From a virus, in the IMG/VR virus record IMGVR_UViG_3300032030_000014, positions 67,919 through 131,918 of that record: DNA of 64,000 bases; one strand, written 5' to 3'. The notes under the pieces were generated by a model. It was not told the DNA's origin. It saw only the letters and a program-made list of their open reading frames with translations, and ran no database searches. The position numbers and the translations under genes are program-made. Below are positions 641-47,716 of this stretch, piece by piece; position 1 is the stretch's first letter, and every line of letters starts with the position of its first letter.

Positions 641-674
641 GCCTCGTAGATCCTCTGCGGGGCTTGACTTTTAT
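641..674 (+). terminator. putative rho-independent terminator after the ATPase gene
   Basis: Stem gcctcgtaga / tctgcggggc (10 bp including two G-U pairs), 3-nt loop, followed by ttgacttttat. Confidence 0.35.
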
Positions 675-692
675 ATAAAAATATGATATAAT
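664..692 (+). promoter_or_regulatory. sigma-A type promoter (TTGACT-17 nt-TATAAT) for the 726 operon
   Basis: Exact -35 at 664-669, a 17-nt spacer, TATAAT at 687-692. AGGAG ribosome-binding site at 711-717, ATG at 726. Confidence 0.5.
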
Positions 693-725: not shown

Positions 726-1259
726 ATGGCACATTATGTAGTCTGCTCAATTTGTAAAGAGCGATTTGATAGAGATAAATATCCTGCTGTCCTTGTAAGT
801 TCGCGTCGATATGCACATGCGACTTGTGCCGGCACCCTTTCACAAGAAGATGAACAAAAAGAAAAAGACAGAAAAGCGTTAGAAAATTATATTATCAAAT
901 TATTTAATTTAGAGCATATGGATGGACGCATTACTTTACAAATATAGAAATATATGCAAGATCATCCTGAATATACATATTCTGGTATTAAAAGAACATT
1001 AGAATATTTTTATGAAATAAAGAAAAATTCATTGGAAAAGGCTAATGGTGGTATTGGCATTGTTCCGTGGGTTTATGAAGAAGCAAAAAGATATTTTTAT
1101 AATCAATGGTTATTAAGTCAAAAAAACGCTGAGAAAGATATTGAAATGTATATTCCAAAAGTAAGAGAAATTGTTATTCAACCACCAAAACGCCAACCAA
1201 AGAGAAGAAAAGTATTTACATTTTTAGACGAAGAGGAGGTCAAAGACTGTGGCAAATAA
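726..1259 (+). CDS. zinc-ribbon protein (CxxC...H..C), probably one 177-aa protein read through the TAG at 945-947
   Basis: ORFs 726..947 and 954..1259 share a frame and are separated only by a TAG. A strong ribosome-binding site precedes 726 but none precedes 954. If TAG were a stop these would be two small genes. Confidence 0.4.
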
Positions 1260-1299
1260 ATATGTTGATACAACAGCAATTATGTAGGTCATTGGAAAT

Positions 1300-2793
1300 G
1301 TGTTTAATAATCCACAGCTCTTAGACTTTACAGATAAATATACCGTAAATGACGAAGACTTTCCAGATCAGTTTCATAAAATTGCTTTTGGAGCCATTTA
1401 TAAACTACATGAGCTTGGCGTTCAAAAGATTACTCTAAATTCAATCGCAGACTTTCTTGCGGCGAGACCTAAAAGCGAGGCTATTTTCAAACAGCAAAAA
1501 GGCGAAGAATGGTTGTTGAAAGTAGCAGAGAATTGTACTCCCAATGCTTTTGATTATTATTACGATAGACTAAAAAAGTTTACACTTCTTAGAGCATATG
1601 ATGCTTATGGTATTAGCGTAAATGATATTTATGACCCCGACGATATTCTTGATACGAAGAAAAGACAGGCTCAAGAAGATAAATTAGATAATATGAGCCT
1701 AATTCAAATCGCAGATGAAATTGATAAAAAAGTTGAAGATTTGCGCCTGCGGTATGTTGATGAAGTAATTGACGAAGCACAGCAGGCTGGCGATGGAATT
1801 TTTGAATTAATTCAAGGATTTAAAGATAATCCAGAAGCAGGAGTTTCTTTGTATGGTCCGTTGGTAAACACGGTAACGCGAGGAGCAAGATTGAAGAAGT
1901 TTTATCTGCGGTCAGCCCCCACTGGCGTTGGAAAATCTCGTTCAATGGTAGCAGATGCCTGTTATATCGGTTGCAATAAAATGTATGATGAAATTTTCGG
2001 CTGGATAAAAACAGGCCCAGCCCAGCCAACGCTATATATCGCTACTGAACAGGATTTAAGCGAAATCCAGACAATGATGTTAGCTTTTATTTCTGATGTA
2101 AATGAAGAGCATATCATTGATGGTAAGTATGAGGGCGATGAAGAAGAGAGAGTGCTTGAAGCGGCAAAGATTATAAAAAATTCTCCGCTGTATGTAGAAC
2201 ATCTTCCTGATTTCTCCCTTCAAGATGTTGAAAATAAAATTAAACGAAATATTAGAGATCACGATGTAAAGTATATTTTCCACGACTATATTCATACTTC
2301 AATGAAAATTCTTGAAGAAATTACTCGCCGTAGTGGTGGAGTAAAACTTCGTGAAGATAATATTTTGTTTATGTTATCTAATAAAATTAAAGACCTTTGT
2401 AATCAATATGGTGTATTTATTATGTCGGCAACTTAGTTAAACGCAGATTATCAAACAAGTGAAACACCAGACCAAAATCTGCTTCGTGGTGCAAAAAGTA
2501 TTGCTGATAAAATTGATTTTGGTGCAATTATGTTACTTGTAAAAGACGATGATAAAAAAGGTCTTGAAAAAATTCTCTCTACTGGAACCTTTGAAACTCC
2601 GACAATTAAGATTTCAGTATATAAAAACCGTAGAGGCAGATATAAAGGGATTTACCTATGGTGCAAAGCGGATTTAGGCACATGCCGCATCAAGCCCATG
2701 TTTGCAACAGGTTGGGATTACGAACTTATCCCAATTGATGATACAAGAATTCATATAGCAAGTGCATTTCCAGATGATGAAGAAGAAGATTAA
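1300..2793 (+). CDS. dnaB: DnaB-family replicative DNA helicase with one in-frame TAG (2434-2436) at the conserved Gln of motif H4
   Basis: Walker A LRSAPTGVGKSR. ORFs 1300..2436 and 2530..2793 share a frame. The sequence through the TAG reads FIMSAT-Q-LNADYQ...LLRGAKSIADKIDFGAIMLLVKDDD, which aligns with E. coli DnaB ALSQLNRSLE...DLRESGSIEQDADLIMFIYRDE. The start is ambiguous: GTG at 1300 or in-frame ATG at 1282. Confidence 0.85.
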
Positions 2794-2805
2794 AGGAGTA
2801 TTACA

Positions 2806-3030
2806 ATGATTAGAAAGAATGAAAATTTTGGGACTTGTGTAATTACCACTGGCACTGGAACTGGCAAGGTTGGTGCTTGTGAGTATCAAATGCCGCAGTC
2901 TATGGCAACTGAATTACTCAAAGAACGTAAGGGCCAGGAAAAAAATATGCGACCACAAGAGTTTTTGGTAAAGTATGTTAATGAACAGTGTGGTCTGCTC
3001 TATAATTGCGTGAGGGTGACAACTATCTAA
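2806..3030 (+). CDS. hypothetical protein (74 aa)
   Basis: AGGAG ribosome-binding site before the ATG at 2806. TAA stop at 3028-3030 overlaps the primase ATG (TAATG). Confidence 0.5.
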   Translation: MIRKNENFGTCVITTGTGTGKVGACEYQMPQSMATELLKERKGQEKNMRPQEFLVKYVNEQCGLLYNCVRVTTI

Positions 3031-4136
3031 TGTTAGTCTTTGATAAACAAGAAATAAGAGATAGTTTATCAATAGATGACATATTTGACCTTCTGGAAGA
3101 ATGGGGCGGTGAGCCAGAGCGATGCCCGACTGGGCTCATCGCCCGAACTATATGTCATAATCGTTTAAATGATGATGCTTCTCGCAAACTATATTATTAT
3201 GAAAATACTGGATTATTTAGATGTTATACAGGTTGTGAAGACCCAGTATTTGATATATTTCAACTTTGTATAAAAGTTATGAATTTACAAAATAATGTAG
3301 TTTATGATTTAAATGATGCAGTTAGATGGATAGCCAGGAGATTTGGTATCTCTGGTAAAGAAGAAGATAGTCCAGAAGATGTTGGTTTAGAAGATTGGAA
3401 AATCTTAGCAAATTATTCTCGTATTCAAGATATTCAAATAGCAGCTCCGCATGTTGTGCTTGAAGAATATGATGATACAATTTTAACACGATTTAATTAT
3501 GATGTAAAAATAAAACCTTGGCTTGATGAAGGAATTTCAGAACAGGCTATTGAGCACGCAGAAATCGGATATTATCCAGGAGATGCACAAATTACAATTC
3601 CTCATTTTGACAAAAATGGTAGATTTATAGGACTGCGTGGGCGCACTCTGGTAGCAGAAGATGCGGAGAAATATGGTAAATATCGTCCTATGAAAATCAA
3701 TGGAATTATGTATAATCATCCTCTTGGATTAAATCTATACAATTTTAATAATGCTCGTTGTGTAATTCCCAAAATGAAAAAAGCTGTTGTATTTGAAGGC
3801 GAAAAAAGTGTTTTGAAAGCACAAACATATTTTGGTTTTGATAATGATATATATGTCGCTTGCTGCGGCAGCAGCTTATCTTCTTACCAAACACAACTGC
3901 TAATTGATGCTGGAGCACAAGAAATTGTTATTGCGTTTGACAGACAGTTTCAGAATGTTGGAGACGATGAATATTGTCATCTGTTGAGAAACTTAAAAAA
4001 AATACAAATGAAATATAAGAATTATGTTCAAATTTCATATATTTTGGATAGAAAAAAAATAACAGGATATAAAGATAGTCCAATAGATTGTGGAAAAGAA
4101 AAATTTTTGATATTATATAAAGAGAGGGTTCAATGA
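3030..4136 (+). CDS. dnaG: DnaG-like DNA primase (zinc-binding region plus TOPRIM)
   Basis: Cys/His zinc motif CPTGLIARTICHN..FRCYTGC. TOPRIM-like VVFEGEKSVLKAQ...CCGSS...DRQFQNVGDDE. No in-frame TAG. TGA stop at 4134-4136. Confidence 0.7.
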   Translation: MLVFDKQEIRDSLSIDDIFDLLEEWGGEPERCPTGLIARTICHNRLNDDASRKLYYYENTGLFRCYTGCEDPVFDIFQLCIKVMNLQNNVVYDLNDAVRWIARRFGISGKEEDSPEDVGLEDWKILANYSRIQDIQIAAPHVVLEEYDDTILTRFNYDVKIKPWLDEGISEQAIEHAEIGYYPGDAQITIPHFDKNGRFIGLRGRTLVAEDAEKYGKYRPMKINGIMYNHPLGLNLYNFNNARCVIPKMKKAVVFEGEKSVLKAQTYFGFDNDIYVACCGSSLSSYQTQLLIDAGAQEIVIAFDRQFQNVGDDEYCHLLRNLKKIQMKYKNYVQISYILDRKKITGYKDSPIDCGKEKFLILYKERVQ

Positions 4137-4423
4137 AAGGAATTGTTTGGTATTATACTAAAAGAGAAGTGGGATTAGCAAAACTGGAAAATATCATTGA
4201 AGAATATCGGCGTATGAGAATCAATACAATACATAGGACGATGGATTGCGTTGAATTTGACAATTAGGATATTTGGCAGATTTGTTCTGTTCAAGATCGA
4301 AGTAGAGGTCATGCTTGTAATATTAGTTTAATTGAACGTGGGACTCCAGAAGATCTTATTAATATAATTATAAAGCCATGTACTAAAGCTTTTCCTTATC
4401 GAGCCTTTAATTATTACACTTGA
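4133..4423 (+). CDS. hypothetical protein (~96 aa) not in the six-frame track because of one in-frame TAG
   Basis: Its ATG at 4133 overlaps the primase TGA (ATGA). Translation with TAG as Q at ~4265 is protein-like: MKGIVWYYTKREVGLAKLENIIEEYRRMRINTIHRTMDCVEFDN-Q-DIWQICSVQDRSRGHACNISLIERGTPEDLINIIIKPCTKAFPYRAFNYYT. TGA stop at 4421-4423. Confidence 0.35.
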
Positions 4424-4507
4424 AAGGTTGATAGTGATTAAAGTGATTATAAGAAAAGTTAAATTTATTGATAGGTAGTGATAGTGTGAAAGGAGGTTGA
4501 TTTTCTA

Positions 4508-6286
4508 ATGGAATTTCAACTATTAACACCCAGTGTCCCAATAGATAAAGATGCAACATTGGTAGACAAGGTGTTCGCAAACAGAGGGGTATTTCCCTTT
4601 GACATTTATCACTATCTACATACTACGAAAGGAGATATATTAGAACCTGAGCTACTCGACAATATTGATGCAGGAGCAAAAATGTTTGTATAGCACCTTG
4701 CCGCAGGTGATAAAATTTTTATACAAGTTGATAGCGACGTTGATGGTTATACATCGGCTGCTGCTTTAATCAATTATGCAAATATGATTGCCCCAGGGCA
4801 TGCTTAGTAGAATATCTCCTACCGCATCCACGATGGGAAAGAACATGGAATTATTTTAGATACAATACCAGAAGATGTAAAGTTAGTAATTGTTCCAGAT
4901 GCGGGAAGTAATGATTATGAGTAGCATCAAGCCTTATATGACAGGGGCGTTGATGTTCTTGTAATCGATCACCACGAAGCCGACCGAGTTTCATAGTATG
5001 CCTGTATTATCAATAATTAGTTAAGTAAAAAGTATTCAAATAAATCACTCTCTGGAGTTGGAATGGTTTATAAATTTTGTGAGTATATTGATAAGTTTTT
5101 AAATAAAAATTATGCAGACGAACTATTAGATTTGGTCGCTATCGGTATGGTTGCAGATATGATGGATTTACGAAATTTTGAAACAAAAGAATTAGTAAAT
5201 TTAGGCATGAACCTACGTCGTAATCCATTTCTTGTTAACCTTATCGAAGCGTAGAGTTATTCCTTAAAAGGAAAGGTTACACCTTTTGGAATTTCATTCT
5301 ACATCGCTCCACTTATCAATGCGACAATTCGCGTTGGTTCATTGGACGAAAAACTGCTCTTATTTGAATCAATGTTAGACTTTCGTGCTTACGAGCAAAT
5401 AGCTTCAACAAAGAGAGGCTGTAAAGGATAGCTTGAGACAAGAGTTGAGCAGGCTTGTAGAAATTGCAAAAATATAAAAAACAGACAAACTAAAGCAAGA
5501 GATACAAGCCTAGAAATAATTGATGAAATCATTGAGAGGGATAATTTATTGTCGCACCCCATTTTGATTATCAAATTGGATAATCCAGTAGATGAACATC
5601 TTACAGGATTGATTGCTAATCAAGTTATGGGATAGTATATGCGGCCAGTGATATTGTTAAATCAATGCGTTGATATTGATGAAGAGACTGGCGAAATTAC
5701 AAAAATCGCTTGGCGTGGATCTGGACGAAATGCGACATACTCCAATTTAGTGAATTTCCGAGAGTTCTTGGCTAATAGTGGTCTTGTGGAATATGCACAA
5801 GGTCATGCATCTGCTTTCGGCATTGGCATTTTAGATGAAAATTTAGAAGCATTTACAAAATATATTGATGAAGAATTAAAAGATTTTAGTTTTAGTAATT
5901 GTTATTATGTAGATTTTTGTTGGGTTGGTAATGAAGTAGTTCTTCATGCAAAAGATGTTTTTGAGATAGGAAAACTTGCGGATAATTGGGGACAAGGATT
6001 AGCTGAACCAAAAATCGCAATACAAAATCTTCAAATAGAGAGTTCTCGTATTTCTCTTTTATCACCCGATAAAAATCCTACATTAAAGATTACCCTCTCC
6101 AATGATTTGACTTTAATTAAATTTAGGTCAAGTCAAGAGGAATATGATAATTTATATTCTGAAACAGGTTGTGTAACATTAAATGCTGTTGGCACTTGTA
6201 ACCTCAATGAGTGGCAAGGCAAACTTAGTCCACAAATTGTTATAGAGGACTATGAAATTGTAAGCAAATCTAGTTATTATTTTTAA
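4508..6286 (+). CDS. recJ: RecJ-like DHH-family ssDNA exonuclease / phosphoesterase (~592 aa) with nine in-frame TAG codons
   Basis: ORFs 4508..4693, 5063..5254 and 5639..6286 are all in frame 2, and the intervening stretches read through TAG only. DHH motifs are present: DSDVDGYTSAA (DxD), LVIDHHEAD (DHH), SLSGVGMVYKF (GxGxA-like motif IV). Two consecutive TAGs at 4805-4810. AGGAGG ribosome-binding site at 4489-4494. TAA stop. Confidence 0.8.
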
Positions 6287-6329
6287 TACACAACTTTTGA
6301 CCTAATTGAAAAATTAGGAGGAAAGTTTT

Positions 6330-7094
6330 ATGAGAAAGAAAATTAGTATCTTAGTTATTATCTGCGTTTTAATGATGGCTTTTATTGGATGTAATACATC
6401 CGTTGATGCAAGTTCTCCATATATTCCCACAGAGGATTTAGATATTTTATATTTTTTTAATGATATAAATATTGAAATTGAAAATCTTTTGTATAGACAA
6501 AATTTAGCACATGAAATGGCTGAGTGCGCAAGGTCTTTAGGATATGCGGAAGACTGTGAAGTAATTCTTGCGGCAAAAACAGAATGGCACAAATGTGAAG
6601 AACAACTCCAAGCGAATATGGAATACATTTCTAGCTGGATTAAAAAATTTGAAGAATATCCATATGCGACTTATATTTGGTTATATTGTGTGAAAGAATT
6701 GGGTTATAGTAATGAAGTAACAGCGGGATTGTTAGGAAATATGATGGCTGAAGTTGGTGGTGGAACATTAGACCTCCAATATTGGCTTTACTCTTATGGA
6801 AGTGGATATTATTACGGGATATGTCAATGGAGTAAAGATACATATCCTGATGTAAGAGGACAAGATTTAATTTTCCAATGTGAATATTTGGCAAACACAA
6901 TTGAATATGAATTAGATACTTTTGGATATGCTTATCAATCTGGTTATAAGTATGCTAACTTTTTGGAACTAACTTCTGTTGAAGAAGCGGCTTTAATGTT
7001 CGCAAAATGTTATGAAAGATGTGCCAAAAGCACATATTCAGTAAGACAGAAGAATGCTGGAAAGGCATATGATTATTTTATGGGGTTATGCTAA
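6330..7094 (+). CDS. secreted lipoprotein with a phage-tail-lysozyme-like domain (PF18013-like)
   Basis: Signal peptide MRKKISILVIICVLMMAFIGC with a lipobox Cys. The core AGLLGNMMAEVGGGTLDLQYW...YGICQWSKD resembles the GNxxxESG...QW motif of the phage tail lysozyme family. AGGAGG ribosome-binding site. Confidence 0.55.
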   Translation: MRKKISILVIICVLMMAFIGCNTSVDASSPYIPTEDLDILYFFNDINIEIENLLYRQNLAHEMAECARSLGYAEDCEVILAAKTEWHKCEEQLQANMEYISSWIKKFEEYPYATYIWLYCVKELGYSNEVTAGLLGNMMAEVGGGTLDLQYWLYSYGSGYYYGICQWSKDTYPDVRGQDLIFQCEYLANTIEYELDTFGYAYQSGYKYANFLELTSVEEAALMFAKCYERCAKSTYSVRQKNAGKAYDYFMGLC

Positions 7095-7125
7095 GCATAA
7101 CCCCTTATTTTTATAGGAGTTTATA

Positions 7126-7620
7126 ATGATAGATAATATTAATTTAGAAATTCATGCGGATATGGCAGCAATTAAAGGAGGAAAGGGCAATCCTATTCTT
7201 TTTGAACTTCCAACCTCAGTTACTTATACATTAGACGATGCTAAAATAAATGAAGATATATTTTCCGCCTTATGTCAGAGTATGGCACAAGTTGGAACAT
7301 CTGCAAAAGATGTAGGAGAAGCATTACGGAAACTCTCTATTTGTTTATATGATAAAGATAAACAAGAATTTAAATCTACCAAGGATATTTTAGAAGAACT
7401 GGCTGATGAATGGAATGAAATTGGTTGTATTAATCCTGCTACACCAGAAGAAATTTCGCAGGCACTGGCTGGACCGGCAACGCCTGAAGCAACCGAAACC
7501 CCAAACCAAAATGCCGATTTCGATTTTTTGGAGCAAAATGCTTATAAAGAAGTTGAAAATATTTTTGATGGGGAACAGTTTGGGCAGATAGTCCCACTTG
7601 ACATACCTAAAAATTTATGA
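7126..7620 (+). CDS. hypothetical acidic protein (164 aa)
   Basis: Ribosome-binding site TAGGAG 10 nt upstream of the ATG. No TAG. TGA stop. Confidence 0.5.
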   Translation: MIDNINLEIHADMAAIKGGKGNPILFELPTSVTYTLDDAKINEDIFSALCQSMAQVGTSAKDVGEALRKLSICLYDKDKQEFKSTKDILEELADEWNEIGCINPATPEEISQALAGPATPEATETPNQNADFDFLEQNAYKEVENIFDGEQFGQIVPLDIPKNL

Positions 7621-7626
7621 TATAAT
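7598..7626 (+). promoter_or_regulatory. consensus sigma-A promoter TTGACA-17 nt-TATAAT
   Basis: Exact -35 at 7598-7603 and -10 at 7621-7626. It overlaps the last codons of the 7126 gene and sits upstream of the ATG at 7663. Confidence 0.5.
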
Positions 7627-14355: not shown

Positions 14356-16632
14356 ATGATTTTAGTTAGTAAAAGAGATGGAACATTAGTTCCATTTGAT
14401 AAAGAAAAGATTATAAACGCAATAAATGCAGCTTTCATTGAAGTAGATGGTACACTTTATGAAGATGATACTGCAAGAGATATTGCGGACGATATTGAAG
14501 ATTATTTTAAATATCAAGACGGAAATGGATGTAGTGTTGAAGAAATCCAAGACCTCGTAGAAGATTATCTAATGCGTTCAGAGCGTAGAGATGTAGCAAA
14601 AGCATATATCCGTTATCGTTATAAAAAAGAAGTCGCTCGTAATTATTAGCATGATTTTATTGATGCCATCAGAGAAAAACTATCAGCCGCAGACGTATAG
14701 AACCAAAATGCTAATGTAGACGAACATTCATTTGGCGGTCGCACAGGAGAAGCCTCAAGTGTAGTAACCAAAAAGCTCGCTCTTGATTATTTAATCTCTA
14801 AGAAAGCAAGAGAAAATCACGAAGGTAATATGGTCTATATTCATGACCTTGATGCCTATTATGTTGGTTCTCACAACTGTTTAAGCATTCCGTTTGACGA
14901 TCTCTTGGCTAATGGTTTTAATACTCGTCAAACAGACGTGCGTCCGGCAGGTTCTGTAAATACCGCTTTCCAACTTGTCGCTGTTATTTTCCAGCTTCAA
15001 AGTCTTCAACAATTTGGCGGAGTAAGTGCTACGCATCTTGACTGGACAATGGTTCCATATGTACGCAAATCATTTTATAAACATTTTAAAGATGGTATAC
15101 ATTACGTAGAATAGGTTATATACGATTGCACGCCTCCAGAAGGTATGGAAGTAAAAGATATACCAATTGATAGTGCTTTTTATGTAAGAGAAAAATATCC
15201 AAATGCTTACCGGTATGCTATGGATATGACAGAACGTGAAGTTCACCAAGCCGTTGAAGGAATGTATCATAATTTAAACACTCTTCAGTCCAGAAGTGGC
15301 AATCAACTTCCTTTTACTTCAATCAATTATGGCACTTGTACTTTACCAGAAGGAAGAATGATTACTCAAGCTCTCTTGGAAGTTTCTATTGAAGGACTTG
15401 GTAAATTACATAAAACATCCATATTCCCATGCGGAATTTTCCAATGCATGAAAGGAGTAAACCGTGATCCAGGAGACCCTAATTACGACTTGTATCAATT
15501 AGCTCTAGAATCTACAGCCAGAAGACTTTATCCTAACTACGCTAATGTAGACTGGTCAGGAAATGCGGGCTACGATCGAAATGATCCCAAAACTTATTTC
15601 TCTACCATGGGATGCCGCACAGCAAATGGTGCCGACATTAACGCAGAACCAGGAGTTAATCCTCAGACTAAAGATGGTCGTGGAAATATCTGCCCCGTAA
15701 CAATTATTCTCCCAACTCTTGCAATGATGGCTTGGGAGAAACTTGATAGTCAGCCTTGGGAAATCGATGAGGACGGCACAAAATATAAGAGTGGTAACGT
15801 TATTGATGCCTTTATGGAAATTCTTGATAATAAAATTCATGAAGCAAAAGATATGCTAATTGAACGCTTTGAGTGGATTTGCTCTCAATCTCCAGAAGCC
15901 GCAAAGTTTATGTATGAAAATAATACAATGCTTGGCTATCATCCAGAAGAAGGAATTAGGAGTGCATTGAAACATGGCACCATTGTTATTGGTCAGCTCG
16001 GCTTGGCAGAAGCTCTTCAAATTCTCATTCATCAAGATCATACGACTTCAGAAGGTATGATTTTAGCAAAACGCATTGAGTAGTTATTTAAAGATCGTTG
16101 TGCTGAATTTAAGCAAGAATATAAATTAAATTTTGGTGTCTATTACACACCTGCGGAAAATTTATGTTATACTGCATTAAAAAAATTCCGTCAACAGTAT
16201 GGAATTATTCCTAATGTTAGTGATAAAGATTTCTTTACGAATAGTATGCATGTTCCGGTGTGGCATCAAATTAGTCCATTTGAAAAGATTGATATTGAAA
16301 GTCAATTAACAGGTTATTCTTCTGCTGGATGTATTACTTATGTAGAACTTGATGCTTCTGCTATTCATAATACTAAAGCATTAGAGCAGATTGTTAATTA
16401 CGCTATGGACCACGATATTCCTTACTTTGCTATTAATGTTCCTTCTGACACTTGCCTTGATTGCGGTTTCCAGGGAGAAATCAATAATAAATGTCCTATG
16501 TGCGGCAGCTCTAATATTCAACAACTACGTCGTGTTACTGGATACTTAACAGGTAACTATACTACTGCGTTTAATCTCGGTAAACAAGATGAAGTGCATC
16601 ATCGAGTTAAGCATGTGGGGGTTATGGAATGA
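14356..16632 (+). CDS. nrdD: anaerobic ribonucleoside-triphosphate reductase NrdD (~758 aa) with four in-frame TAG codons
   Basis: ORFs 14356.., 14830.., 15145.. and 16246..16632 share a frame. The joins read through TAG at 14647, ~14695, 15112 and 16081. N-terminal ATP-cone (KRDGTLVPFDKEKI), FTNSMHVP, C-terminal Zn/glycyl-radical region CPMCGS...RVTGYLTGNYTTAFNLGKQDEVHHRVKH. Confidence 0.85.
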
Positions 16633-16823
16633 GAATTATTAAACATGGAGATAAATTCGAAATAGGAGAAGCCACTTGTCCAACTTGTCATTGTGTTTTT
16701 GCTTATACCAGAGAAGATATTTATTCAACATATAATAGAGACGAAGGATACGATGAATATTATGTAAATTGTCCTGAATGTATTCAAAATATCTTTATTC
16801 CTGCTAAGGAGGTAGAGATATGA
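16629..16823 (+). CDS. small zinc-ribbon protein (64 aa)
   Basis: CPTCHC...CPEC. Its ATG overlaps the nrdD TGA (ATGA). Confidence 0.45.
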   Translation: MRIIKHGDKFEIGEATCPTCHCVFAYTREDIYSTYNRDEGYDEYYVNCPECIQNIFIPAKEVEI

Positions 16824-17314
16824 GATACGCGGGTATAATTAAAAATGATATTGCCGCAGGTGAAGGAATGAATGTCTCATTCTTTGTTCAAGGATGTCCA
16901 ATCCATTGTCCTGGATGTCATAATCCACAAACCTGGGATTTTAATGGCGGAAAAGAATTTACCATGGATACTTTGAATGATATTCTCTATTCTATTGGAG
17001 AAAATGGTATTCAAAGAAATCTTAGTATAATGGGCGGCGAACCTTTATGTAAAGAAAATTTATTCCTAGTAAATCTTATTGTATCTAATGTATTAGAGAA
17101 ATATCCAACAATAAAAATTTATATATGGACTGGATATACTTATGAAGAATTAATAGGAAGAAATGATGAAATATTAAATAAACTATTAGATAAAATAGAT
17201 TATTTAATAGATGGACCTTTTATGATAAAAGAGCGAGATATTACTCTTGCTATGAGAGGCAGCCGCAATCAACGAATTTTAAATATGAAGGAACTTAGAA
17301 ATAATGGATAGTGA
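16820..17314 (+). CDS. nrdG: anaerobic RNR activating enzyme NrdG (radical SAM)
   Basis: The GCPIHCPGC cluster near the N-terminus and GGEP are typical of NrdG. One TAG at 17309-17311, immediately followed by TGA. Confidence 0.8.
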
Positions 17315-19253: not shown

Positions 19254-19292
19254 GGGCGATAGTCTTAATTGACTATCGCCCTTTTTCTTTTT
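19254..19292. terminator. bidirectional rho-independent terminator between convergent genes
   Basis: Stem gggcgatagtc, loop ttaatt, stem gactatcgccc, with T-tracts on both strands (ctttttcttttt on +, A-run on the other side). Confidence 0.6.
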
Positions 19293-19782
19293 AATCATCA
19301 AAGCTACGATTTTCAGCTTTCATTTGTGCTCTTACTTTATCAACTACTCTATCATGAAGAGCATCTCCTCGGTGATTACCACCAAGCCCCTTATAAACTT
19401 CATAATCAACTTCAAATTCTTCATATTCATCAACTGTTATATAATGTCCTGATCCTAATAAGTATTCGCAAAAGTCTCTAAATTGTTTTCCCTAAATTGA
19501 CAAAATACCAGACCCCATATGATCAACATCTTTATGAATTTGATCTAATTCGTTCTGTAGTTTTTCATCTTCTTCTTTAGACTAAACTTCAACCTTAGAA
19601 ATTTCTGTCTCTAAGGTACTTATAATTTTACTACACATATTTTTCTCTTTTTCTTTCCATTTCTCTTCCATGCTCTTTTTTTGTAATTTAACATAGTGTT
19701 TTGCAAATAAAGCAATACCACCAGCAACAAGAGCACATAACCAATTTATCCAATATTTTGCAATCCATTCTAAAACTTCCAT
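19291..19782 (-). CDS. small membrane protein (163 aa) with an N-terminal transmembrane helix and a coiled-coil/acidic tail; two TAGs
   Basis: ORF 19582..19782 continues in frame past the TAG to a TAA at 19291-19293. The hydrophobic N-terminus is EWIAKYWINWLCALVAGGIALFA. GGAGG ribosome-binding site. Confidence 0.5.
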
Positions 19783-19879
19783 TAAAACTCCTCCTTAATT
19801 TTTTGACATTTATTCTGTCTAAAATTATTTAAATATTAAAATAGAAATTTTATTAATTTTTGTCCTTAATAATAAAAAA

Positions 19880-19913
19880 GCCAGAGGAAAAATCCTCTGG
19901 CTTACTTTTTTTA
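19880..19913 (-). terminator. rho-independent terminator after the 19917..20312 gene
   Basis: Stem gccagagga, loop aaaatc, stem ctctggc. It is flanked by an A-run and a T-run, so it works on either strand. Confidence 0.55.
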
Positions 19914-19916
19914 TTA

Positions 19917-20312
19917 TTATTTCTATTTTTGTTCTTTAACTGCAGATTCAATTAAAACAGTTATATATTCATCTAAATCTCCGATAATTTGTTCAAGATA
20001 AGTTAATACATCTTCTGACAGAGAAAGCATTACTGCTTCATAAACTTTTTTAAAAGCCTCTTCTTGTGCTTCTTTTGTAAAAGAATTTTCTTTTTTTAAT
20101 TCATCTACATAAGTTTGATTAACAGTAATGACTGTCTTAGTAACGAGTTCCTAAAGAATATCAATATAAAGAAAATATCTATCGTCTTTGACTTTTTCTT
20201 TTAATTGATTCGCTTTTGCATTAATCCACTTTACCGCAAAACCACCAAGTGCAATTAGTAGTGGAATTAATACAGTCTAAATAATAACTGGTAAAAGTTC
20301 TTTATAATCCAT
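19917..20312 (-). CDS. small membrane protein (~131 aa), holin-like topology (one N-terminal transmembrane helix); two TAGs
   Basis: Ribosome-binding site AAGGAGGG 7 nt upstream of the ATG at 20312. MDYKELLPVIIQTVLIPLLIALGGFAVKW then a charged helical tail. TAA stop. Confidence 0.45.
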
Positions 20313-33142: not shown

Positions 33143-36100
33143 TTAAGCCTAAGCTGGGGATACAGCACGATCTGCTGTTATACCAAAGTATTTATAATTG
33201 CCACTCGAATCAACTAATCCTTGTGGAATTTGTCCATCCCTAGTATAAATGACTATTGATCCACCTGGACCTCTTAACTGATGGAATCCATTAAATATAC
33301 TAGAGACGCCTTCTCTAAGTTGATTTGTAGTAATCATATCTTCCCAAGTGCAAGGATCTCCTTCTGCACCGACATAAATATTATAAGTGTACTGTAAAGA
33401 TGCAAAAGGTTTATCTCCAAATTCAACGTAAGAATGTCCTGGAATATATACAGTATCTAACTATATATCCATAAAAATAGCATTTCCAATACTAATTATT
33501 GGCTACAAAATATTTTTAATTAGCATTGGATCGTCCTAACCAAGAGAAGGACAGCTCTTAAATGCGTTATTACCAATAATCTTACAGGTATTTGGTTGCT
33601 CATAGTATTTTAAATATGGCATTTCTTGGAAAGCTTGAGCGTTAATTTTAATTAAAGATCTTGTTGTAGTATCATCCTTATTTTCAGGTGGATCTGCCCA
33701 AAATACATGAGTAATTGAGGTATTGCTGAAACCAGTTCCAATGTTTCCACCTACCTAAATAACAGGTGTACCATTAACTACAGTAGGTAATGTAATTTTA
33801 CCACTTAAAGAATATCTTCTATCTAAAGAAATTGCACATCCTTCTGCTTGTATTCCAGCCTAATTAATTCTCACATTTTCTACTAATAAATACTAAGGAT
33901 CTAAAACATTTTTATAAACACTTACTTTTTCATATACTGCGATAAAAGCATAATCATCGCCAATCGGCAGTTTGGATAAATCCTATGGCACAGTTGGCTA
34001 TTTAGTAAATGCCCATCCTTTAAATTTATTTACATAATAGAAATTATCTTCAGTATCAGATAATTCAAGAGTTGGAATAATTTCACCACCATTTTTATTT
34101 ACGGGCGGATTTACACCATATCCTGTTGAATATGTCTGATAATTGACTAAATCGCTATTATCGCTATCTTTTATAGGTGTTCCATCTGCATTGATATAAG
34201 TACGTTTATATGCATGCAAGAAGAAGATTGCATAGAAGGTATAATCAAGAGCCAAATCTCCATTCGGTCTTGTCCATTGTCCTCCAGAATTAGAAATTAA
34301 AACCTAATATTTCTTATTTCCAATAGTATATATATCCTCCCCGGATGCCCCATCGTTAGTTTCTATAGCCCAACCAAAGAAATCGTAATTTGCTAAAAAC
34401 TTGTCTAAATTACCATATTTTGTCATTGGGTTATCAAACCATAGATTATCTATAGAAGCTGCACTAGCAACAGTCTAAATTGATAATGGATTTTCAGTAA
34501 CATAATGATAATTCTTACCATTATCTTCAAGATAAATAAATCTTGCAGAAGGCTTTTTAGTAACTGTTTTAAATAGGAATGTTAACTATGGGAAATATCT
34601 CTATAAAGTATTTCTAATATAATCTTCATCAACTGCTATATCATTATCAATATAAATAATACCAGTAATATTTGGAATTAAAACATTATTTAATCCCTAA
34701 TAATTATTGTTATTAATAAATGTTTTAAACATTTCAACATCATTAATCTAACCAATGGTTTCTGCGGCAATAGTTTTATCTACTTTATAAATTTCTTTGT
34801 TAGCAAGCTAAGTTTCCCATTCTCCTTCATTGTAAGAAAAATCTACTAATCCATAATGATTATCTGTAACTTTATAATCAGCAGGATCTCCACTATAAAT
34901 TTCATCTTGCTCAGCGAGAGTATAAGGAGACCATTTAACATTTGTCATATTAATATATGCTATACTTGTCGCAGAATTACCGCCACGAGCATCAAAATGT
35001 TTCTTTAACAATTTATAACTATCATAACCTAAACTACCACCAACAATACTTAGGCGATTAATTCTTGTTGAATTATTATTAAACAAGCCATCTATCCATA
35101 AGCCAGGAGTAGCAACTAATTTTCCATCTTGAAGCACAGGTCTTTGATAAGATGTAAGTAAACGAGTTAATAATCTTGCTTCAGTAAGTTCTAAAGTAGT
35201 AATAGAACTTGGTAAATATAAAGTATTTAAAGCAACTCCTTCAGCAAATTTAACTTCTGTTAAATTAGAACCTGTAGCTCTAAAGTTCTACAACTTTTCA
35301 CAAGAAGTTAAATCAAGAGTTGGGGCAGTTCCAGTAATCTAAATATTACTCATATTTACTTCTTTTAATAGTGGCATACCAGAGGCATCTTTGCTAGAAG
35401 GAATGGAAGGAGGATTTAATTTATCGTTTTTCCAGGTAAATTCTCTTTCAATTCCATTATTGTCAAAATCTGTAATAGCACCGTCGTAGCCTAGCAACAA
35501 TTTTGTCAAATGTCGAGCATCGCCCTCAATCTTAAATTCTTGCCAATACATATTACTCATATTTCCAACATCAGACATTTGATTCATGCCGTAAACATAT
35601 AGTAACTATTCAGGATATCCAGAACTTGTTCTAACACCATTTTCAATAGAAGAAATTTCAAACTTAACAGGATTAATACCATCATACTTCTTACTTGGAT
35701 AAGCTTCATTATCATCGCCAAGAGTTACATAGGTACTATGTGTTGGGGTAAGAGTTAACCAATATTCTGCATCGAATGGATGTCTTTTTTGAGTTTCAGC
35801 TTGATCTAACCAATAAGATGTTGAAGAATTTGTTGGATCTTCTACCCAAATATCAGAAGTATTTGTTGGATTATTTGCTGCAACACGGCCCCACATGCGG
35901 TTACTACCACCGCGAGCATAGTTGCCTTGATTAAGCCAAGAGTCAATGTATTCAAGACGATTTGTAAGGAATTGCTAACGAGACAGGCTTCTATCACCTT
36001 GTAAAGCATAGAAATAAGTACCATTAGAATCATAAGTCCAAGTGCCTTCGGTATCACTGGAAATATGTCCAGTAGTACCATCCTAATATTGTTTACTATT

Positions 36101-39100
36101 AGTAATAGTAATATATTTATAATACTCGTCAAGGTTTGTCGCAATTAAAGGACGTTTGCCTCTCATAACAATACTACCACAAACATTAGGATCTGTACGA
36201 TACCAAGCTTCAATATTTGCAACAGAGCGGAGAGGGGGATTTTGTAATTGCGCCCAAGTAACACCAGCATTAATTCCTTTTAAATGTTTATATTTCATTA
36301 AAATACGAGAATTTTTAAAGTATTTATAGAAATTATTCCAAAGAACACTATCAGAGGTTGAAAAGTTTCCATTATCTGTAGCATCAACATTATATTCAAA
36401 AGAAGGAATACCAGTATTATTAATACCTAATTGAGTATCAATATCATAGAAGATAGGATACCAAATATATTCTCCGCCTTGTTTCTAAGGTCCCCAAGAA
36501 GCAAACATTGCATTTTTTCCTCTTGAGTCATAACATTCAAAAACTTCTGTCATTACAAAATAAGTAGATAAATATTCAATATCGAAATGATCTGCTAATT
36601 CATTAATGAATTTATCTGCACGATATTCTTGAGTATCAAAAGTATACTAATGATTTTGACCATCTCCATATCGTACAGTGATACCAACCCAATAATTCGT
36701 AGGATTTTCATTATATTGTTCTTCTGTGATTACTATAGGTTTAACTGCGGAACCAGCAGTCTATTCGCCATCGTATGTATAATAAATAATCGAACTGTCA
36801 TAAGTTTCATTGGCTTCACATCGTCTTACTAGTCTATCAAAACCACCATCGGCAGCCATTTCTTCATCTGTTAAAGAAGTAAAACTATAATATGTTTGGG
36901 TTGGATCAAAATCATCAATACTAATGACTTTAACACCATTCACATCAATATAATATTTATTTTTCTCATATTGAACTGTCCCAAGATAAGCACTATTATA
37001 CTAATCCCCATTTTTAATATAATAATTTTTAGTTGGATCATAATGATCACTTGTATCAAGAACATATCTTTCGTTTGTTGTGTCATATACAAAATAAGTT
37101 CCACTTACCCAAAGATTACCTAATCCTGTCACTTCTGTATATGTACCACCAGATTTTACACTCTCTGTATTAGTACTCCATACCCAAGCAACAGCTTTTT
37201 CCCAGTTGGCGTAAGAATTAAAGATAACTTTTGCACGATTTGCATAATTTTCTGTTGGATTTTCTTTATTATATGCTAAATCACCATTTTTTTGCATATA
37301 AGCAACAGTATCACTTGCTTCATATTTGTCGCCGTCTTTATCTGGATTATATACATAGTCAAGGATATCTGCATCAGCGTGATAACGATACTCAAAAGAG
37401 TCAGCAACAACAGGAGCTGAACCAACTGAATTAAGAACAGGAACTTTTTCTGTGCCATTTAAAGTATAAACATTAAAAGATAAATCTTTTCTATTCATTG
37501 GGTCTCTAAAAGAACAAAATGTACGAGAATTATTTTCTCCTTCCCAACATTCTGCAATTTTAGAAATTTTCTTATTACCTAAGAACTTCTAAAAAATATC
37601 TTTTCCTGTTGTTTTATCTGGTTTAAATCCATAAACTTCATCGGACCCTTTATCCAAAAGCATATTATACATACCAATATATGTATATGTTCCATCTGAC
37701 TTTTTATGGAAGGCTAATGTTCTAAAGCCCTATACGGAAGTTCGATAATCATTGGTATTTGAAATTACACATGTTTTATAGCCAAAAACTGCTTTGTACC
37801 ATTTATTATAATACTGATGATTTTCTTCATTATTCCAACCTTCATTATTACCCTCAGTTAATACTTTAGTAATATTATGAGCAGCTGCATAAGCAACTGG
37901 ACCAAGGGCAAAGTCTTCAGCAGACTAAATCTATAATTCATCTTCAACTGTATTTTTCCAATTACCTTTATGATTTTTATAATAATATGTAGTACCGGCT
38001 TTATAAGAAGTAGCTTCTTCATAACTGGTCTAATCCATATCATATTCAGTAAAGGCTCCAGCCGCATTCAAATCATCAAAAGGATGCTTTGAATAAGCAT
38101 TTTTTACCATATTAGCAAAACCCATATTATAAGTTCCAGAAGATTCCATATAATCAATCTTCATAGTAAATTTGGTAGTTCCTGCGGTATAATTGTCCAT
38201 ATACCAATATTTCTATCTTGTATTTTCTGGATTGGCATCATATTCGGCTGCAAAAGGACCTCTATTTAAATAAATATTAACTCCATTATCATCTTTTGTC
38301 TTTAACTTATAGTTACGACGAGGATAAAATTCAGAAGATGTGCCTTGAACAGCCATTGATACACCTTCACCTTTCCAAGAAGGACAATGGTGCTAATAAT
38401 AATATTTTACTGCGGCAGCTTTTTCTTCGGCAGTAGAAGAACTATTCCAAAGTTTATCTCCTTCTGGACCAGATAATGTTTCCAATTCACCCGTTGAATA
38501 TGCTAATTCTAAAGGAGTATTAACAAATTCAACACCAATATTTACTTTAACGCTTTTAGCATAAGATAATTTATCATCATTATTACTATTTGTAGTATCA
38601 AAAACAATATATGGCATAATGGGAGAATCAATGTGTGCGGTATTATAATCCATCATCTTTTTATAATTAAATTGATATTCACTAATTGCAGAATTTTCTA
38701 CTGCCAATTTATTCTAATCATAAATAAGAACGTCTTTTAAATCTACCGCAAAATTAGTTACAATATCATTAACATTTAAATCGGTTCTATAAAAACGAAC
38801 TTTATATAAATCGATATCACAATACTAAGAATTAAATATTAATGCTTTTTCAGTAGAATCTGTACTTGTTATACCAAAAGAATTGGTAAGTGAATTTTTA
38901 ATAACACCAGTTAAGACACCATTAATATAAATATACATTAATTTAGTAGTATGAGAATATACTGCACTTAAATTAATAATATTATCTTCAACATAATCGA
39001 CATTGACTGTATTAGTGCCATTTGAGAAAAAGGCATCCTATGGTCCTAAACAAATACCAACTACAGATTGATTATTACCAGAATAAAAACCACAAGCAAC

Positions 39101-47300: not shown

Positions 47301-47716
47301 ATAGCTCGTCTATTTTCAAAAATTTTATCAAACTAAAAATGAGTACGTCCTGTGTTTGTTATATTACCATAAAATCCCATATATTAAGACCCCCAATACG
47401 CAATATCAATAACTAAATAAGCACTATCATTACGTTCTATCTCTCGAATAGATCTTTCATCTACCTTAATATCGGTAATAGCTCCTCCTGCGGATAAGTC
47501 TATTTCAAATAAACCAGTAAAACCTACTACAACAGGAGCCGTACCACCATTTAGATAAAGCCTTGTTCCTGGTAATGCACTAATACCAAGCTAAGAAATA
47601 GTTCTATCTGCAGGCAGAAATCTTCCATTAATTAAAGATTCTGCTGTTAAATTCTATGGAAAATTATGTTCTGAACCAGGAGAACAATAAATAAATTGCT
47701 AAAAATTTTGATTCAT
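44303..47716 (-). CDS. large structural protein (~1137 aa)
   Basis: AAGGAGG ribosome-binding site 8 nt before the ATG at ~47714-47716. It is in frame with ORFs 46034..46678 and 44405..44719. Hand translation of 44720-44820 is protein-like. TAA at 44303-44305, immediately followed by the terminator. Confidence 0.45.

What the first reader, a model, noticed from the sequence alone, without database searches (positions are those of the whole stretch)
6330..7094. Secreted lipoprotein carrying a phage-tail-lysozyme-like domain in the early replication operon
A lipobox signal peptide exports this protein during infection or lysogeny instead of incorporating it into the tail. Its muramidase-like core (GNMMAEVGGG...YGICQWS) and its position between recJ and the Dda helicase, far from structural genes, suggest a role other than virion-associated cell-wall entry. 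Superinfection exclusion, remodelling of host wall or spore cortex, or an unconventional endolysin are possibilities.
Basis: partly seen in the sequence, partly recalled or inferred. Interest (0 to 1): 0.55.

Follow-up and report, generated by a model that had tools for sequence, protein, structure and literature searches.

The report
Exported phage muramidase in replication operon
A virus of gut Clostridia encodes, among its DNA-replication genes, a cell-wall-cutting enzyme with an export signal. It most likely pre-loads the host wall for later bursting, which is a known phage strategy built here from an unusual enzyme type in an unusual genomic place.

Summary

The gene is the last one in a sigmaA-type operon (YorH-like, DnaB, primase, RecJ, lysozyme) and ends in an intrinsic terminator. 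The host is an SPbeta-like, TAG->Gln recoded, about 164-kb phage of gut Clostridia. The RecJ-lysozyme-SF1 helicase order is kept in 68 of 69 IMG/VR loci.

The lipobox meets the PROSITE rule here and in the nearest relatives, but in only 43 of 118 homologues. All of them keep a signal peptide with an AxA-type site, so export is the conserved feature and lipidation is not.

The best reading (about 0.45) is a secretory lysin that waits in the wall until the phage holin (19917-20312) collapses the membrane potential. That holin has no adjacent endolysin. In Faecalibacterium phage Lagaffe the same holin family sits next to a PF18013 endolysin.

The main rival is a non-lytic early wall-remodelling role, as for SPbeta YorM. 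About 93 kb of the genome was not seen. I rate it a new variant of a known kind, of moderate interest.

The parts
664..692 (+). Candidate sigmaA-type promoter of the operon that ends with the lysozyme gene (TTGACT-17-TATAAT, 11 of 12, with TG extension). It lies just after a terminator at 639-665.
   Evidence: consensus scan only; function inferred
726..6286 (+). Upstream genes of the same transcription unit: YorH-like (726-1259), DnaB-like helicase (1282-2793), primase/Toprim-like (3030-4136), a small ORF (4133-4423) and RecJ-like exonuclease (4508-6286, with 9 in-frame TAG=Gln).
6316..6321 (+). Shine-Dalgarno sequence AGGAGG, 8 nt before the ATG.
6330..7094 (+). Coding sequence of the exported gp13-type muramidase (254 aa, no in-frame TAG).
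6330..6410 (+). Signal peptide, residues 1-27: n-region MRKK, h-region I5-G20, lipobox F-I-G-C21 (Cys codon 6390-6392), then c-region NTSVDA with an AxA-type site (V25-D-A27|S28).
   Evidence: rule-based
6411..6446 (+). Conserved linker SSPYIPTE... (low pLDDT around residues 21-39).
6447..6656 (+). Conserved antiparallel helical hairpin (residues 40-69 and 77-109; motif RQxxAHxMAExARxLGY). It has no convincing structural or family match, and its role is unknown.
6660..7082 (+). phi29 gp13-type lysozyme domain (residues 111-251; Pfam match 113-250).
6750..6752 (+). Codon of Glu141, which aligns with the catalytic Glu45 of phi29 gp13 and is invariant in 84 homologues.
7082..7114 (+). Intrinsic-terminator-like hairpin (10-bp stem, 6 G-C pairs) whose loop is the TAA stop codon, followed by TTATTTTTAT. 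A hairpin at this position, though not of this sequence, is present in most relatives checked (7 of 9 loci).
19917..20312 (-). Holin (phrog_13712, E 1.3e-27; 3 in-frame TAG) with no adjacent endolysin. It is the inferred functional partner.
19291..19782 (-). Membrane-anchored coiled-coil protein next to the holin (phrog_4257, unknown function). It may be a second lysis-cassette component.

Best explanation
The gene encodes a Sec-exported muramidase of the phi29-gp13 type. In this phage it may be lipid-anchored; in many relatives it is simply secreted. It is made from the host-RNA-polymerase-driven replication operon, so it reaches the outer face of the membrane and the inner wall of the infected cell well before virions are ready. 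There it is largely harmless while the membrane is energised. When the separately encoded holin (19917-20312, TAG-containing, no sigmaA-type promoter) collapses the proton-motive force, the pre-positioned enzyme cuts the glycan strands and the cell bursts. In short, it acts as a secretory endolysin, either the main one or an accessory one, as described for Oenococcus phage fOg44 Lys44 and Kayvirus Tgl.

Shown: the gene, the fold, the catalytic residue, the export signal, the operon position, the conserved synteny and the orphan holin.

Inferred: actual export, enzymatic activity, timing, dependence on the holin, and that no other endolysin exists.
For: Domain and active site:
- PF18013, E 3.4e-17.
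- E141 aligns with catalytic Glu45 and is invariant in 84 homologues.

Export:
- 113 of 118 full-length homologues have a basic n-region plus hydrophobic core plus small-x-small site.

Lysis context:
- The window holin (phrog_13712, E 1.3e-27) has no neighbouring hydrolase here or in relatives L088 and L089.
- In cultured phages with this holin family the endolysin is the adjacent gene.
- The Lagaffe endolysin next to that holin is PF18013 (E 1.8e-35) + Amidase_2 + SPOR. A gp13-type domain therefore does serve in an annotated endolysin of Clostridia phages.
- No other peptidoglycan-hydrolase domain turned up in any window ORF tested, including the giant tail ORFs, or in 7 kb to the left.

Timing:
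- A consensus sigmaA-like promoter lies at 664-692, and the gene is operon-terminal with a terminator.
- No such promoter lies before the holin.

Precedent:
- Tgl is Sec-secreted, transcribed from an early host-type promoter, and lyses only after nisin or holin-like depolarisation (PMC7150955).
Against: - The gene is never next to a holin or in a lysis cassette. It sits between RecJ and the SF1 helicase in 68 of 69 IMG/VR loci and in the genome and metagenome loci L001-L006, L009-L012, L014-L017 and L025. More distant homologues also lie among early or DNA-metabolism genes.
- About 93 kb of the 163.7-kb genome was not seen, so a canonical endolysin may exist there. SPbeta, a cultured relative, is known from the literature (my own knowledge, not checked here) to have a canonical endolysin, BlyA.
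- SPbeta carries a different exported muralytic-type protein (YorM, TM + 3D domain) in the homologous operon. This hints at a module-specific role distinct from main lysis.
- A lipid anchor, if real, would limit the enzyme's reach into a thick Gram-positive wall.
- There is no cell-wall-binding domain.
- No activity, export or expression data exist.
Confidence: 0.45

Rival explanations
1. Non-lytic early wall remodelling. The membrane-proximal muramidase opens or loosens the innermost peptidoglycan of the infected cell early in infection for a purpose other than release. Examples would be halting septation or sporulation, allowing cell enlargement, or making room for an envelope-spanning structure. 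It would work like the conjugation hydrolases PrgK and CwlT, and like whatever SPbeta YorM does.
For: - The position in the replication operon is strictly conserved, and remote homologues also sit among early genes.
- SPbeta has a non-homologous exported muralytic-type protein, YorM, at the end of the homologous operon. Its promoter region is bound by the master repressor MrpR (PMC10516654).
- The catalytic domain is 39-42% identical to the C-terminal domain of membrane-anchored CHAP+PF18013 proteins. The one locus examined (Ruminococcus, L027) lies next to a VirB4-like ATPase in a conjugative element.
- The muramidase domain of PrgK is a structural homologue of gp13 (bioRxiv 10.1101/2024.02.15.580431).
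- The nearest relatives have a lipobox, which suggests tethering.
Against: No concrete early process that needs a muramidase is known for such phages. YorM's function has not been determined (PMC10653849). The lipobox is not conserved (43 of 118), so tethering is not essential. The orphan holin and the absence of another hydrolase in 71 kb are left unexplained.
Confidence: 0.27
2. Superinfection exclusion or receptor destruction. An early surface lipoprotein alters the wall so that further phages cannot adsorb or inject, and progeny are not trapped on debris. This would be analogous to T5 Llp or TP-J34 Ltp.
For: It is an early-operon gene with a lipobox. It evolves faster than its neighbours: 77% identity to the L002 orthologue, against 96% for DnaB, 93% for primase and 90% for DnaE. 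That pattern is expected for envelope-interacting proteins.
Against: Known exclusion lipoproteins block receptors or tape-measure proteins and are not glycosidases (my own knowledge, not tested here). The invariant catalytic Glu argues for enzymatic wall cleavage. The protein matches no model in PADLOC, a library of bacterial anti-phage defence proteins. The lipobox is not conserved, and nothing suggests expression in lysogeny.
Confidence: 0.08
3. Virion-associated entry lysin after all. The hydrophobic N-terminus would be a membrane-insertion segment of an ejected or tail protein, not a signal peptide.
For: PF18013 is best known from tail proteins: phi29 gp13, enterococcal tail-associated lysins and the BFVD hits named 'Morphogenesis protein 1'. 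No hydrolase domain was found in the tail ORFs within the window.
Against: The N-terminus is a canonical Sec signal (MKK, 16 strongly hydrophobic residues, AxA) in 113 of 118 homologues. The gene lies on the opposite strand from the structural block and 16 kb from it, in a sigmaA-type replication operon. The protein is small and standalone, with no tail-protein domains. The tape-measure gene, which carries the lytic domains in SPbeta (my own knowledge, not checked here), lies mostly outside the window.
Confidence: 0.05
4. A secreted bacteriolysin (class III bacteriocin-like) that kills neighbouring competitors or releases nutrients and muropeptide signals. It would be a conversion or 'public good' function rather than a step in the phage cycle.
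For: Many homologues look like freely secreted enzymes (AxA site, no lipobox). The Sps family, to which the positional analogue YorM belongs, was proposed to be analogous to resuscitation-promoting factors (PMC1084345).
Against: The gene has no promoter of its own and is embedded in a lytic replication operon. There is no targeting or wall-binding domain and no immunity gene nearby.
Confidence: 0.05

Closest known systems
phi29 gp13 N-terminal lysozyme-like domain (PF18013 Phage_lysozyme2; PDB 3CSQ, 3CSR, 3CT5)
   Different: gp13 is a tail-knob protein fused to an LytM/M23 peptidase domain and has no signal peptide. Here the domain is standalone, preceded by a signal peptide and a helical hairpin, and encoded in a replication operon. 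Sequence identity is about 20%.
Secretory endolysins: fOg44 Lys44 and Kayvirus Tgl (PMC7150955)
   Same: These are phage muralytic enzymes with a Sec signal peptide and an AxA site. For Tgl, transcription is from an early host-type promoter. The proposed logic is the same: exported early, lytic only after holin or nisin depolarisation, and a holin still encoded in the genome.
   Different: The catalytic folds differ (Tgl is an IsaA/SceD-type transglycosylase). Tgl lies a few genes from lysK and holA, whereas this gene is 13 kb from the holin, inside the DnaB-primase-RecJ operon. It also has a possible lipid anchor and an extra hairpin domain. Nothing has been tested experimentally here.
Faecalibacterium phage FP_Lagaffe endolysin gp31 with holin gp32
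   Same: gp31 has an N-terminal PF18013 domain (E 1.8e-35). Its neighbour gp32 belongs to the same holin family as window 19917-20312 (tblastn 29% identity, E 3e-7). The host is in the same class (Clostridia).
   Different: gp31 has no signal peptide, carries Amidase_2 and SPOR domains, and is adjacent to its holin. Its PF18013 domain shows only weak pairwise similarity to the window protein (28% identity, BLASTP E 0.002). The endolysin role of gp31 is an annotation, not an experiment.
Conjugation cell-wall hydrolases: pCF10 PrgK, and the CHAP+PF18013 protein next to a VirB4-like ATPase in Ruminococcus sp. JL13D9 (L027)
   Same: These are membrane-anchored, extracytoplasmic gp13-type muramidase domains that act on the producer's own wall from the inside. 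The catalytic domain is 39-42% identical to the Ruminococcus and related Clostridia proteins (bioRxiv 10.1101/2024.02.15.580431).
   Different: They are large multi-domain proteins (CHAP or LytM in addition) encoded next to type IV secretion ATPases. This one has a single catalytic domain and sits in a phage replication module.
SPbeta YorM (TM anchor + 3D/Sps domain, PF06725)
   Same: YorM is an exported muralytic-type protein of about 240 aa encoded at the end of the homologous replication gene block (yorF-yorG-yorH-yorI-yorJ-yorK-yorL-yorM) of the related phage SPbeta.
   Different: There is no homology, as the fold is different (MltA-like 3D domain). YorM lies after the DNA polymerase gene rather than after recJ. 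Its function has not been determined (PMC10653849).

Membership tests
PF18013 / phi29 gp13-type lysozyme domain | Profile match above Pfam's gathering threshold over the whole domain | tested here: met
   63.4 bits against a cut-off of 28.2, E 3.4e-17, profile positions 3-140 of 140
PF18013 / phi29 gp13-type lysozyme domain | gp13_N lysozyme-like fold | tested here: met
PF18013 / phi29 gp13-type lysozyme domain | Catalytic glutamate equivalent to gp13 Glu45 | tested here: met
   E141 aligns with Glu45 in the phmmer alignment and is invariant in 84 homologues. The role of Glu45 is taken from PMC10394673.
PF18013 / phi29 gp13-type lysozyme domain | Substrate-stabilising residue equivalent to gp13 Gln54 | tested here: inconclusive
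   Q150 is conserved in at least 90% of homologues and lies nearby, but the alignment has a gap there.
PF18013 / phi29 gp13-type lysozyme domain | Muramidase activity on peptidoglycan | not testable with these tools
   Needs a zymogram or muropeptide analysis.
Tail-associated (virion) lysins | Encoded in the tail module or fused to tail-protein domains, with no export signal | tested here: not met
   Replication operon, opposite strand, 16 kb from the tail genes, standalone, Sec-type signal peptide
Bacterial lipoproteins (Sec/SPII) | Lipobox according to PROSITE PS51257 (Cys at positions 15-35, K/R in the first 7 residues) | tested here: met
   A-F-I-G-C21 with R2, K3 and K4
Bacterial lipoproteins (Sec/SPII) | Lipobox cysteine conserved among orthologues | tested here: not met
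   Only 43 of 118 full-length homologues meet the rule. Several close ones (P0007, P0009) have no Cys. All keep an AxA-type site.
Bacterial lipoproteins (Sec/SPII) | Lgt/Lsp processing and acylation | not testable with these tools
   Needs SignalP 6/LipoP, then globomycin or palmitate labelling.
Secretory (Sec-exported) endolysins | Cleavable N-terminal signal peptide on a peptidoglycan hydrolase | tested here: met
   Rule-based signal peptide in 113 of 118 homologues, plus the PF18013 domain
Secretory (Sec-exported) endolysins | A holin encoded in the same genome | tested here: met
   19917-20312(-), phrog_13712, E 1.3e-27. Holin and lysozyme families appear to share contigs: hits of both families list identical longest-contig lengths, e.g. 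163,725 and 197,467 bp.
Secretory (Sec-exported) endolysins | Located in a lysis cassette next to the holin | tested here: not met
   13 kb apart in a different operon, and no holin within +/-10 kb in 80 IMG/VR loci
Secretory (Sec-exported) endolysins | No other (canonical) endolysin, or a demonstrated contribution to lysis | tested here: inconclusive
   None found in the window plus 7 kb of flank. About 93 kb of the genome was unseen.
SAR (signal-arrest-release) endolysins | Weakly hydrophobic, Gly/Ala/Ser-rich N-terminal transmembrane domain that can leave the membrane | tested here: not met
   The core ISILVIICVLMMAFIG is strongly hydrophobic (12-residue Kyte-Doolittle mean 3.4) with one Gly and one Ala.
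Type IV secretion / conjugation wall hydrolases (PrgK, CwlT, TcpG type) | Encoded in a transfer gene cluster (VirB4/VirD4 ATPases) and carrying a second hydrolase domain | tested here: not met
   The neighbours are DnaB, primase, RecJ, an SF1 helicase and DnaE. There is a single catalytic domain. The ICE relative L027 does have both features.
Known anti-phage defence or exclusion proteins | Match to a described defence or exclusion family | tested here: not met
   No PADLOC hit, no NCBIfam hit, and only PF18013 in Pfam

The most novel reading that the evidence does not exclude
SPbeta-like phages need an exported murein hydrolase as part of their early replication programme, not for release. 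This gp13-type enzyme and the unrelated 3D-domain YorM of SPbeta would be non-orthologous replacements for one and the same early function. Candidate functions are arresting septation or sporulation of the Clostridia or Bacillus host, or locally opening the wall. That would define a previously unrecognised step in the infection cycle of large Firmicutes phages.
Probability: 0.2. Interest if true: 0.7.

Novelty: new variant of a known kind. Interest (0 to 1): 0.42.

Why it matters
If the secretory-lysin reading is right, a large and widespread group of uncultured gut Clostridia phages splits its lysis system. This group yielded 169 relatives among candidate stretches in IMG/VR and 362 database proteins. 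The wall-cutting enzyme would be exported early from the replication operon. The holin is encoded elsewhere and contains recoded TAG codons, so its translation depends on the phage's switch to the alternative genetic code. That would tie lysis timing directly to stop-codon recoding, an idea proposed for recoded phages but not yet pinned to specific genes.

The work also gives annotators a concrete rule: in these genomes the 'phage tail lysozyme' hit next to recJ is not a tail protein.

If the non-lytic reading is right instead, the tractable SPbeta gene yorM becomes a model for an unknown early envelope function.

The enzyme family is small, has a single domain, is naturally secreted and is active-site-conserved. 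It is also a candidate source of muramidases against gut Clostridia.

Tried and rejected
1. TAG-freeness as a marker of 'pre-recoding' early expression. The window gene has 0 TAG in 254 codons. But the operon background rate gives P(0) of about 0.15 (from the codon counts), and orthologues in L004 and L014 contain 1 and 3 in-frame TAG. Upstream genes of the same operon need TAG read-through. I dropped this argument.

2. Searching cultured and deposited phages for the family. tblastn against 50,697 phage records gave no match, so no annotated relative exists there.

3. Finding a canonical endolysin elsewhere in the genome.
- The look-up of encoding contigs refuses TAG->Gln proteins.
- The left flank, reached via the primase, shows only ligases, a GIY-YIG protein, ThyA and YorF.
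- A homologue search with the tape-measure C-terminus returned only fragments from unrelated contigs.
- About 93 kb stays unseen.

4. Walking a 48-kb IMG/VR contig that carries a distant homologue. The 43 kb recovered holds only small early-type genes, the largest being 653 aa, and no recognisable structural genes. It is probably a fragment, so it cannot answer the question of a sole endolysin.

6. The helical hairpin gave only generic coiled-coil matches such as CnrX and designed bundles. No function could be assigned.

7. SAR endolysin, defence-system and conjugation-hydrolase memberships were considered and rejected (see the membership table).

Full report
**The observation.** AGGAGG lies 8 nt upstream. 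It is a real, conserved gene. A search of 5.8 billion proteins gave 362 homologues with E<=1e-3. The best 120 are 190-293 aa, and all carry PF18013. The exact protein is on record on a 163,725-bp metagenomic contig.

In the sequence alignment to gp13, the Glu of GNMMAE (E141) falls on Glu45. Glu45 is the proposed catalytic residue of gp13, and its GH184 equivalent is essential by mutagenesis (PMC10394673). E141 is invariant in 84 homologues, as are G133, G136, N137, C165-Q166-W167 and Y228-E229. The lysozyme-family call is therefore solid. Enzymatic activity is inferred.

**The export signal.** The N-terminus reads MRKK, then sixteen strongly hydrophobic residues, then F-I-G-C21, N-T-S-V-D-A27 and S-S-P. 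It satisfies the PROSITE PS51257 lipoprotein rule. A classical signal-peptidase-I site (V-x-A|S) lies six residues after the Cys.

Across 118 full-length homologues, 113 have a basic n-region plus hydrophobic core and a small-x-small site. The other five mostly look truncated at the N-terminus. Only 43 meet the lipobox rule, and some close relatives have no cysteine at all, for example P0007 and P0009 with ...TAGNVFA|SSPFIPTE. More distant homologues carry an uncleaved-looking signal anchor instead.

The conserved property is thus delivery of the catalytic domain to the outside of the membrane. Lipidation is plausible for this phage and its nearest relatives, but it is not a family trait. No SignalP or LipoP run was possible. 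The hydrophobic core is too hydrophobic for a SAR-type domain.

**Architecture.** After the signal peptide and a conserved linker (SSPYIPTE) comes an antiparallel helical hairpin, with helices at 40-69 and 77-109. It has high model confidence and a conserved motif (RQxxAHxMAExARxLGY). It has only generic coiled-coil structural matches, so its role is unknown. There is no recognisable cell-wall-binding domain.

**The genome.**
- The window belongs to a phage that reads TAG as a sense codon. With TAG open, the summed length of ORFs of 150 aa or more rises from 8,602 to 20,795 codons. The minus strand then resolves into giant ORFs of 1,907, 2,653 and 2,810 aa.
- In RecJ, several TAG positions align with Gln in relatives, including conserved NNQL and VQVDS motifs. 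The public gene calls for the source contig equal my TAG->Gln translations.
- The replication block is that of SPbeta: YorF, AAA_24/YorG, YorH, DnaB/YorI, primase/YorJ, RecJ/YorK and DnaE/YorL.
- The best tblastn hits for DnaE are Enterococcus phages (39%) and SPbeta-like phages (37%).
- Related contigs are 75-200 kb and are binned with Oscillospiraceae, Eubacterium, Clostridium, Acutalibacteraceae and Lachnospiraceae MAGs.
- A TAG-recoded, DnaE-encoding gut phage group related to SPbeta and EF1 has been described (phAss-1, PMC10607447). No deposited phage genome contains this lysozyme family.

**Operon position.**
- A terminator (639-665) is followed by a near-consensus extended -10 promoter at 664-692.
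- The genes for the YorH-like protein, DnaB, primase, a small ORF, RecJ and the lysozyme then follow with short gaps.
- A 10-bp G+C-rich hairpin, whose loop is the TAA stop codon, plus a T-run, ends the unit at 7082-7114.
- A perfect 12/12 promoter at 7598-7626 starts the next unit: helicase, methylase, DnaE.
- Hairpins of different sequence occupy the same place after the stop codon in relatives L002, L004, L009-L012 and L015.
- There is no room for a separate promoter in the 43-nt gap before the gene.

The gene is therefore co-transcribed with replication genes, probably by host RNA polymerase. This rests on consensus matches only.

The order DnaB-primase-RecJ-lysozyme-SF1 helicase-DnaE is kept in the genome and metagenome loci L001-L006, L009-L012, L014-L017 and L025. 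It is also kept in 68 of 69 IMG/VR loci with enough flank. The lysozyme diverges faster than its neighbours: 77% identity to the L002 orthologue, against 96% for DnaB, 93% for primase, 90% for DnaE and 89% for the helicase.

**Lysis genes.**
- The window contains one holin, 19917-20312 on the minus strand (phrog_13712, E 1.3e-27; 3 in-frame TAG). Next to it is a membrane-anchored coiled-coil protein (19291-19782). Each is followed by a strong bidirectional terminator. No sigmaA-type promoter match lies upstream.
- No hydrolase is adjacent. The same holds in two relatives, where the pair sits on the + strand after RuvC.
- In cultured phages with this holin family, Roseburia phage Shimadzu and Faecalibacterium phage Lagaffe, the endolysin gene is the immediate neighbour.
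- The Lagaffe endolysin turned out to start with a PF18013 domain (E 1.8e-35), followed by Amidase_2 and SPOR. A gp13-type muramidase domain is therefore part of an annotated endolysin paired with this holin family in Clostridia phages.
- Every other window ORF tested, including all the giant tail ORFs, lacks a Pfam peptidoglycan-hydrolase domain. The same is true of the 7 kb to the left of the window.
- About 93 kb of the genome, including most of the tape-measure gene, could not be inspected.

**How it most likely works.** My preferred model is a secretory lysin. The enzyme is made from the early operon and exported by Sec. It accumulates at the membrane-wall interface without killing the energised cell. 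It destroys the wall once the later-made holin dissipates the proton-motive force.

This is the mechanism shown for fOg44 Lys44 and for Kayvirus Tgl. Tgl has an AxA signal peptide and an early host-type promoter, and it lyses S. aureus only when nisin is added (PMC7150955).

The steps shown here are the fold, the active-site residue, the export signal, the operon structure, the orphan holin and the Lagaffe precedent. The inferred steps are export, activity, timing and holin dependence. I put this at about 0.45.

**The main rival.** Three observations suggest that the early, replication-linked position is itself functional:
- The gene is never found in a lysis cassette.
- More distant homologues also sit among DNA-metabolism or early genes in other phage types.
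- SPbeta carries an unrelated exported muralytic-type protein, YorM (TM anchor + 3D domain, E 1.2e-11), at the end of the homologous block. YorM is a member of the Sps family (PMC1084345), has no determined function (PMC10653849), and has a repressor-bound promoter region (PMC10516654). From the literature (my own knowledge, not checked here), SPbeta also has a canonical endolysin, BlyA.

In addition, the catalytic domain's closest non-phage relatives (39-42% identity) are C-terminal domains of membrane-anchored CHAP+PF18013 proteins. In the locus examined (Ruminococcus, L027) the gene lies next to a VirB4-like ATPase in a conjugative element. The PrgK muramidase domain of pCF10 is a structural homologue of gp13. 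Those enzymes open the producer's wall locally without lysis. A non-lytic early remodelling role is therefore a serious alternative, at about 0.27.

Three further readings have little support and are weighted low: superinfection exclusion, a virion role, and a secreted bacteriolysin.

**Comparison with what is known, and novelty.** The protein is a member of the PF18013/gp13 domain family, since profile, fold and catalytic Glu are all met. It is not a tail-associated lysin by context. It works like a secretory endolysin but fails that class's usual criterion of lying in a lysis cassette. It resembles conjugation hydrolases in topology but not in context or domain composition.

The individual ingredients are known. 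New here are four things together:
- a gp13-type domain as a standalone exported enzyme;
- an added conserved hairpin;
- a fixed place as the terminal gene of the replication operon across a large uncultured phage group;
- a holin that is encoded elsewhere and carries recoded TAG codons.

I rate it a new variant of a known kind, with interest about 0.4.

Noticed in passing
window 1-64000: The whole window uses TAG as a sense codon (Gln). With TAG open, the minus strand from 23.4 to 64 kb becomes a continuous block of giant ORFs. TAG use is very uneven: 0 in primase, SF1 helicase, methylase and DnaE (2,316 codons together), 9 in RecJ, and 70 in the 2,810-aa ORF. No tRNA gene lies in the window, so any suppressor tRNA is encoded elsewhere.
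   Followed up: partly
window 19291-20312 (-): A holin (phrog_13712) and a membrane-anchored coiled-coil protein form a two-gene unit with no endolysin. Each gene is followed by a strong bidirectional terminator. The unit is inverted relative to relatives L088 and L089, where it follows RuvC on the + strand.
   Followed up: yes
window 23444-29167, 33143-41104, 44303-47380, 47730-51065, 51296-54007, 54256-62688 (all -): These are very large late ORFs of 1,907, 2,653, 1,025, 1,111, 903 and 2,810 aa. They have almost no Pfam matches: only a tail-fibre repeat in the first and a BspA-type LRR in the second. They are presumably tail, baseplate or fibre proteins of unusual size.
   Followed up: partly
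window 62808-64000 (-): This is the C-terminal end of a tape-measure-like protein that runs off the window. A homologue search returned only fragments, so whether it carries lytic domains, as the SPbeta tape-measure protein CwlP does, is unknown.
   Followed up: partly
L007 12937-13653 (SPbeta yorM): SPbeta encodes, right after its DNA polymerase gene in the homologous replication block, a membrane-anchored 3D-domain (MltA-like) protein of unknown function. It is a positional, non-homologous analogue of the window gene.
   Followed up: partly
L087 1219-2799 (Faecalibacterium phage FP_Lagaffe gp31): The annotated endolysin of this cultured phage starts with a strong PF18013 'phage tail lysozyme' domain (E 1.8e-35), followed by Amidase_2 and SPOR. 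The Pfam name is therefore misleading for endolysins of Clostridia phages.
   Followed up: yes
L027 8168-10426 (Ruminococcus sp. JL13D9 chromosome): A 752-aa membrane protein with CHAP and C-terminal PF18013 domains sits next to a VirB4-like ATPase and a sortase. It is a conjugative-element wall hydrolase. The tblastn hit rows suggest that about 30 similar domain-only matches in rumen and gut Clostridia genomes share the CHAP+PF18013 arrangement, but only this locus was examined.
   Followed up: partly
window 7082-7104: The terminator hairpin overlaps the end of the gene. The last codons (GGGGTTATGC) form one arm, the TAA stop is the loop, and the other arm follows. The C-terminal residues M-G-L-C are thus constrained by RNA structure.
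   Followed up: partly
window 14356-17314: An anaerobic ribonucleotide reductase NrdD (4 in-frame TAG) and its activase NrdG, together with DUF3310, dUTPase and RuvC, follow DnaE. This fits a strictly anaerobic host.
   Followed up: no
window 21150-21974 (+): This is a Gly/Trp-rich predicted membrane protein (GGWWIILLFLFAFGGWGNGFGGGWGNGG...) matching phrog_16490, of unknown function. It is followed by a well-conserved protein of unknown function (phrog_20016, E 1.5e-52).
   Followed up: no
L175 1-2679 (left of the window in a near-identical genome): Two adjacent NAD-dependent DNA ligase genes lie upstream of the GIY-YIG, ThyA and YorF genes.
   Followed up: no
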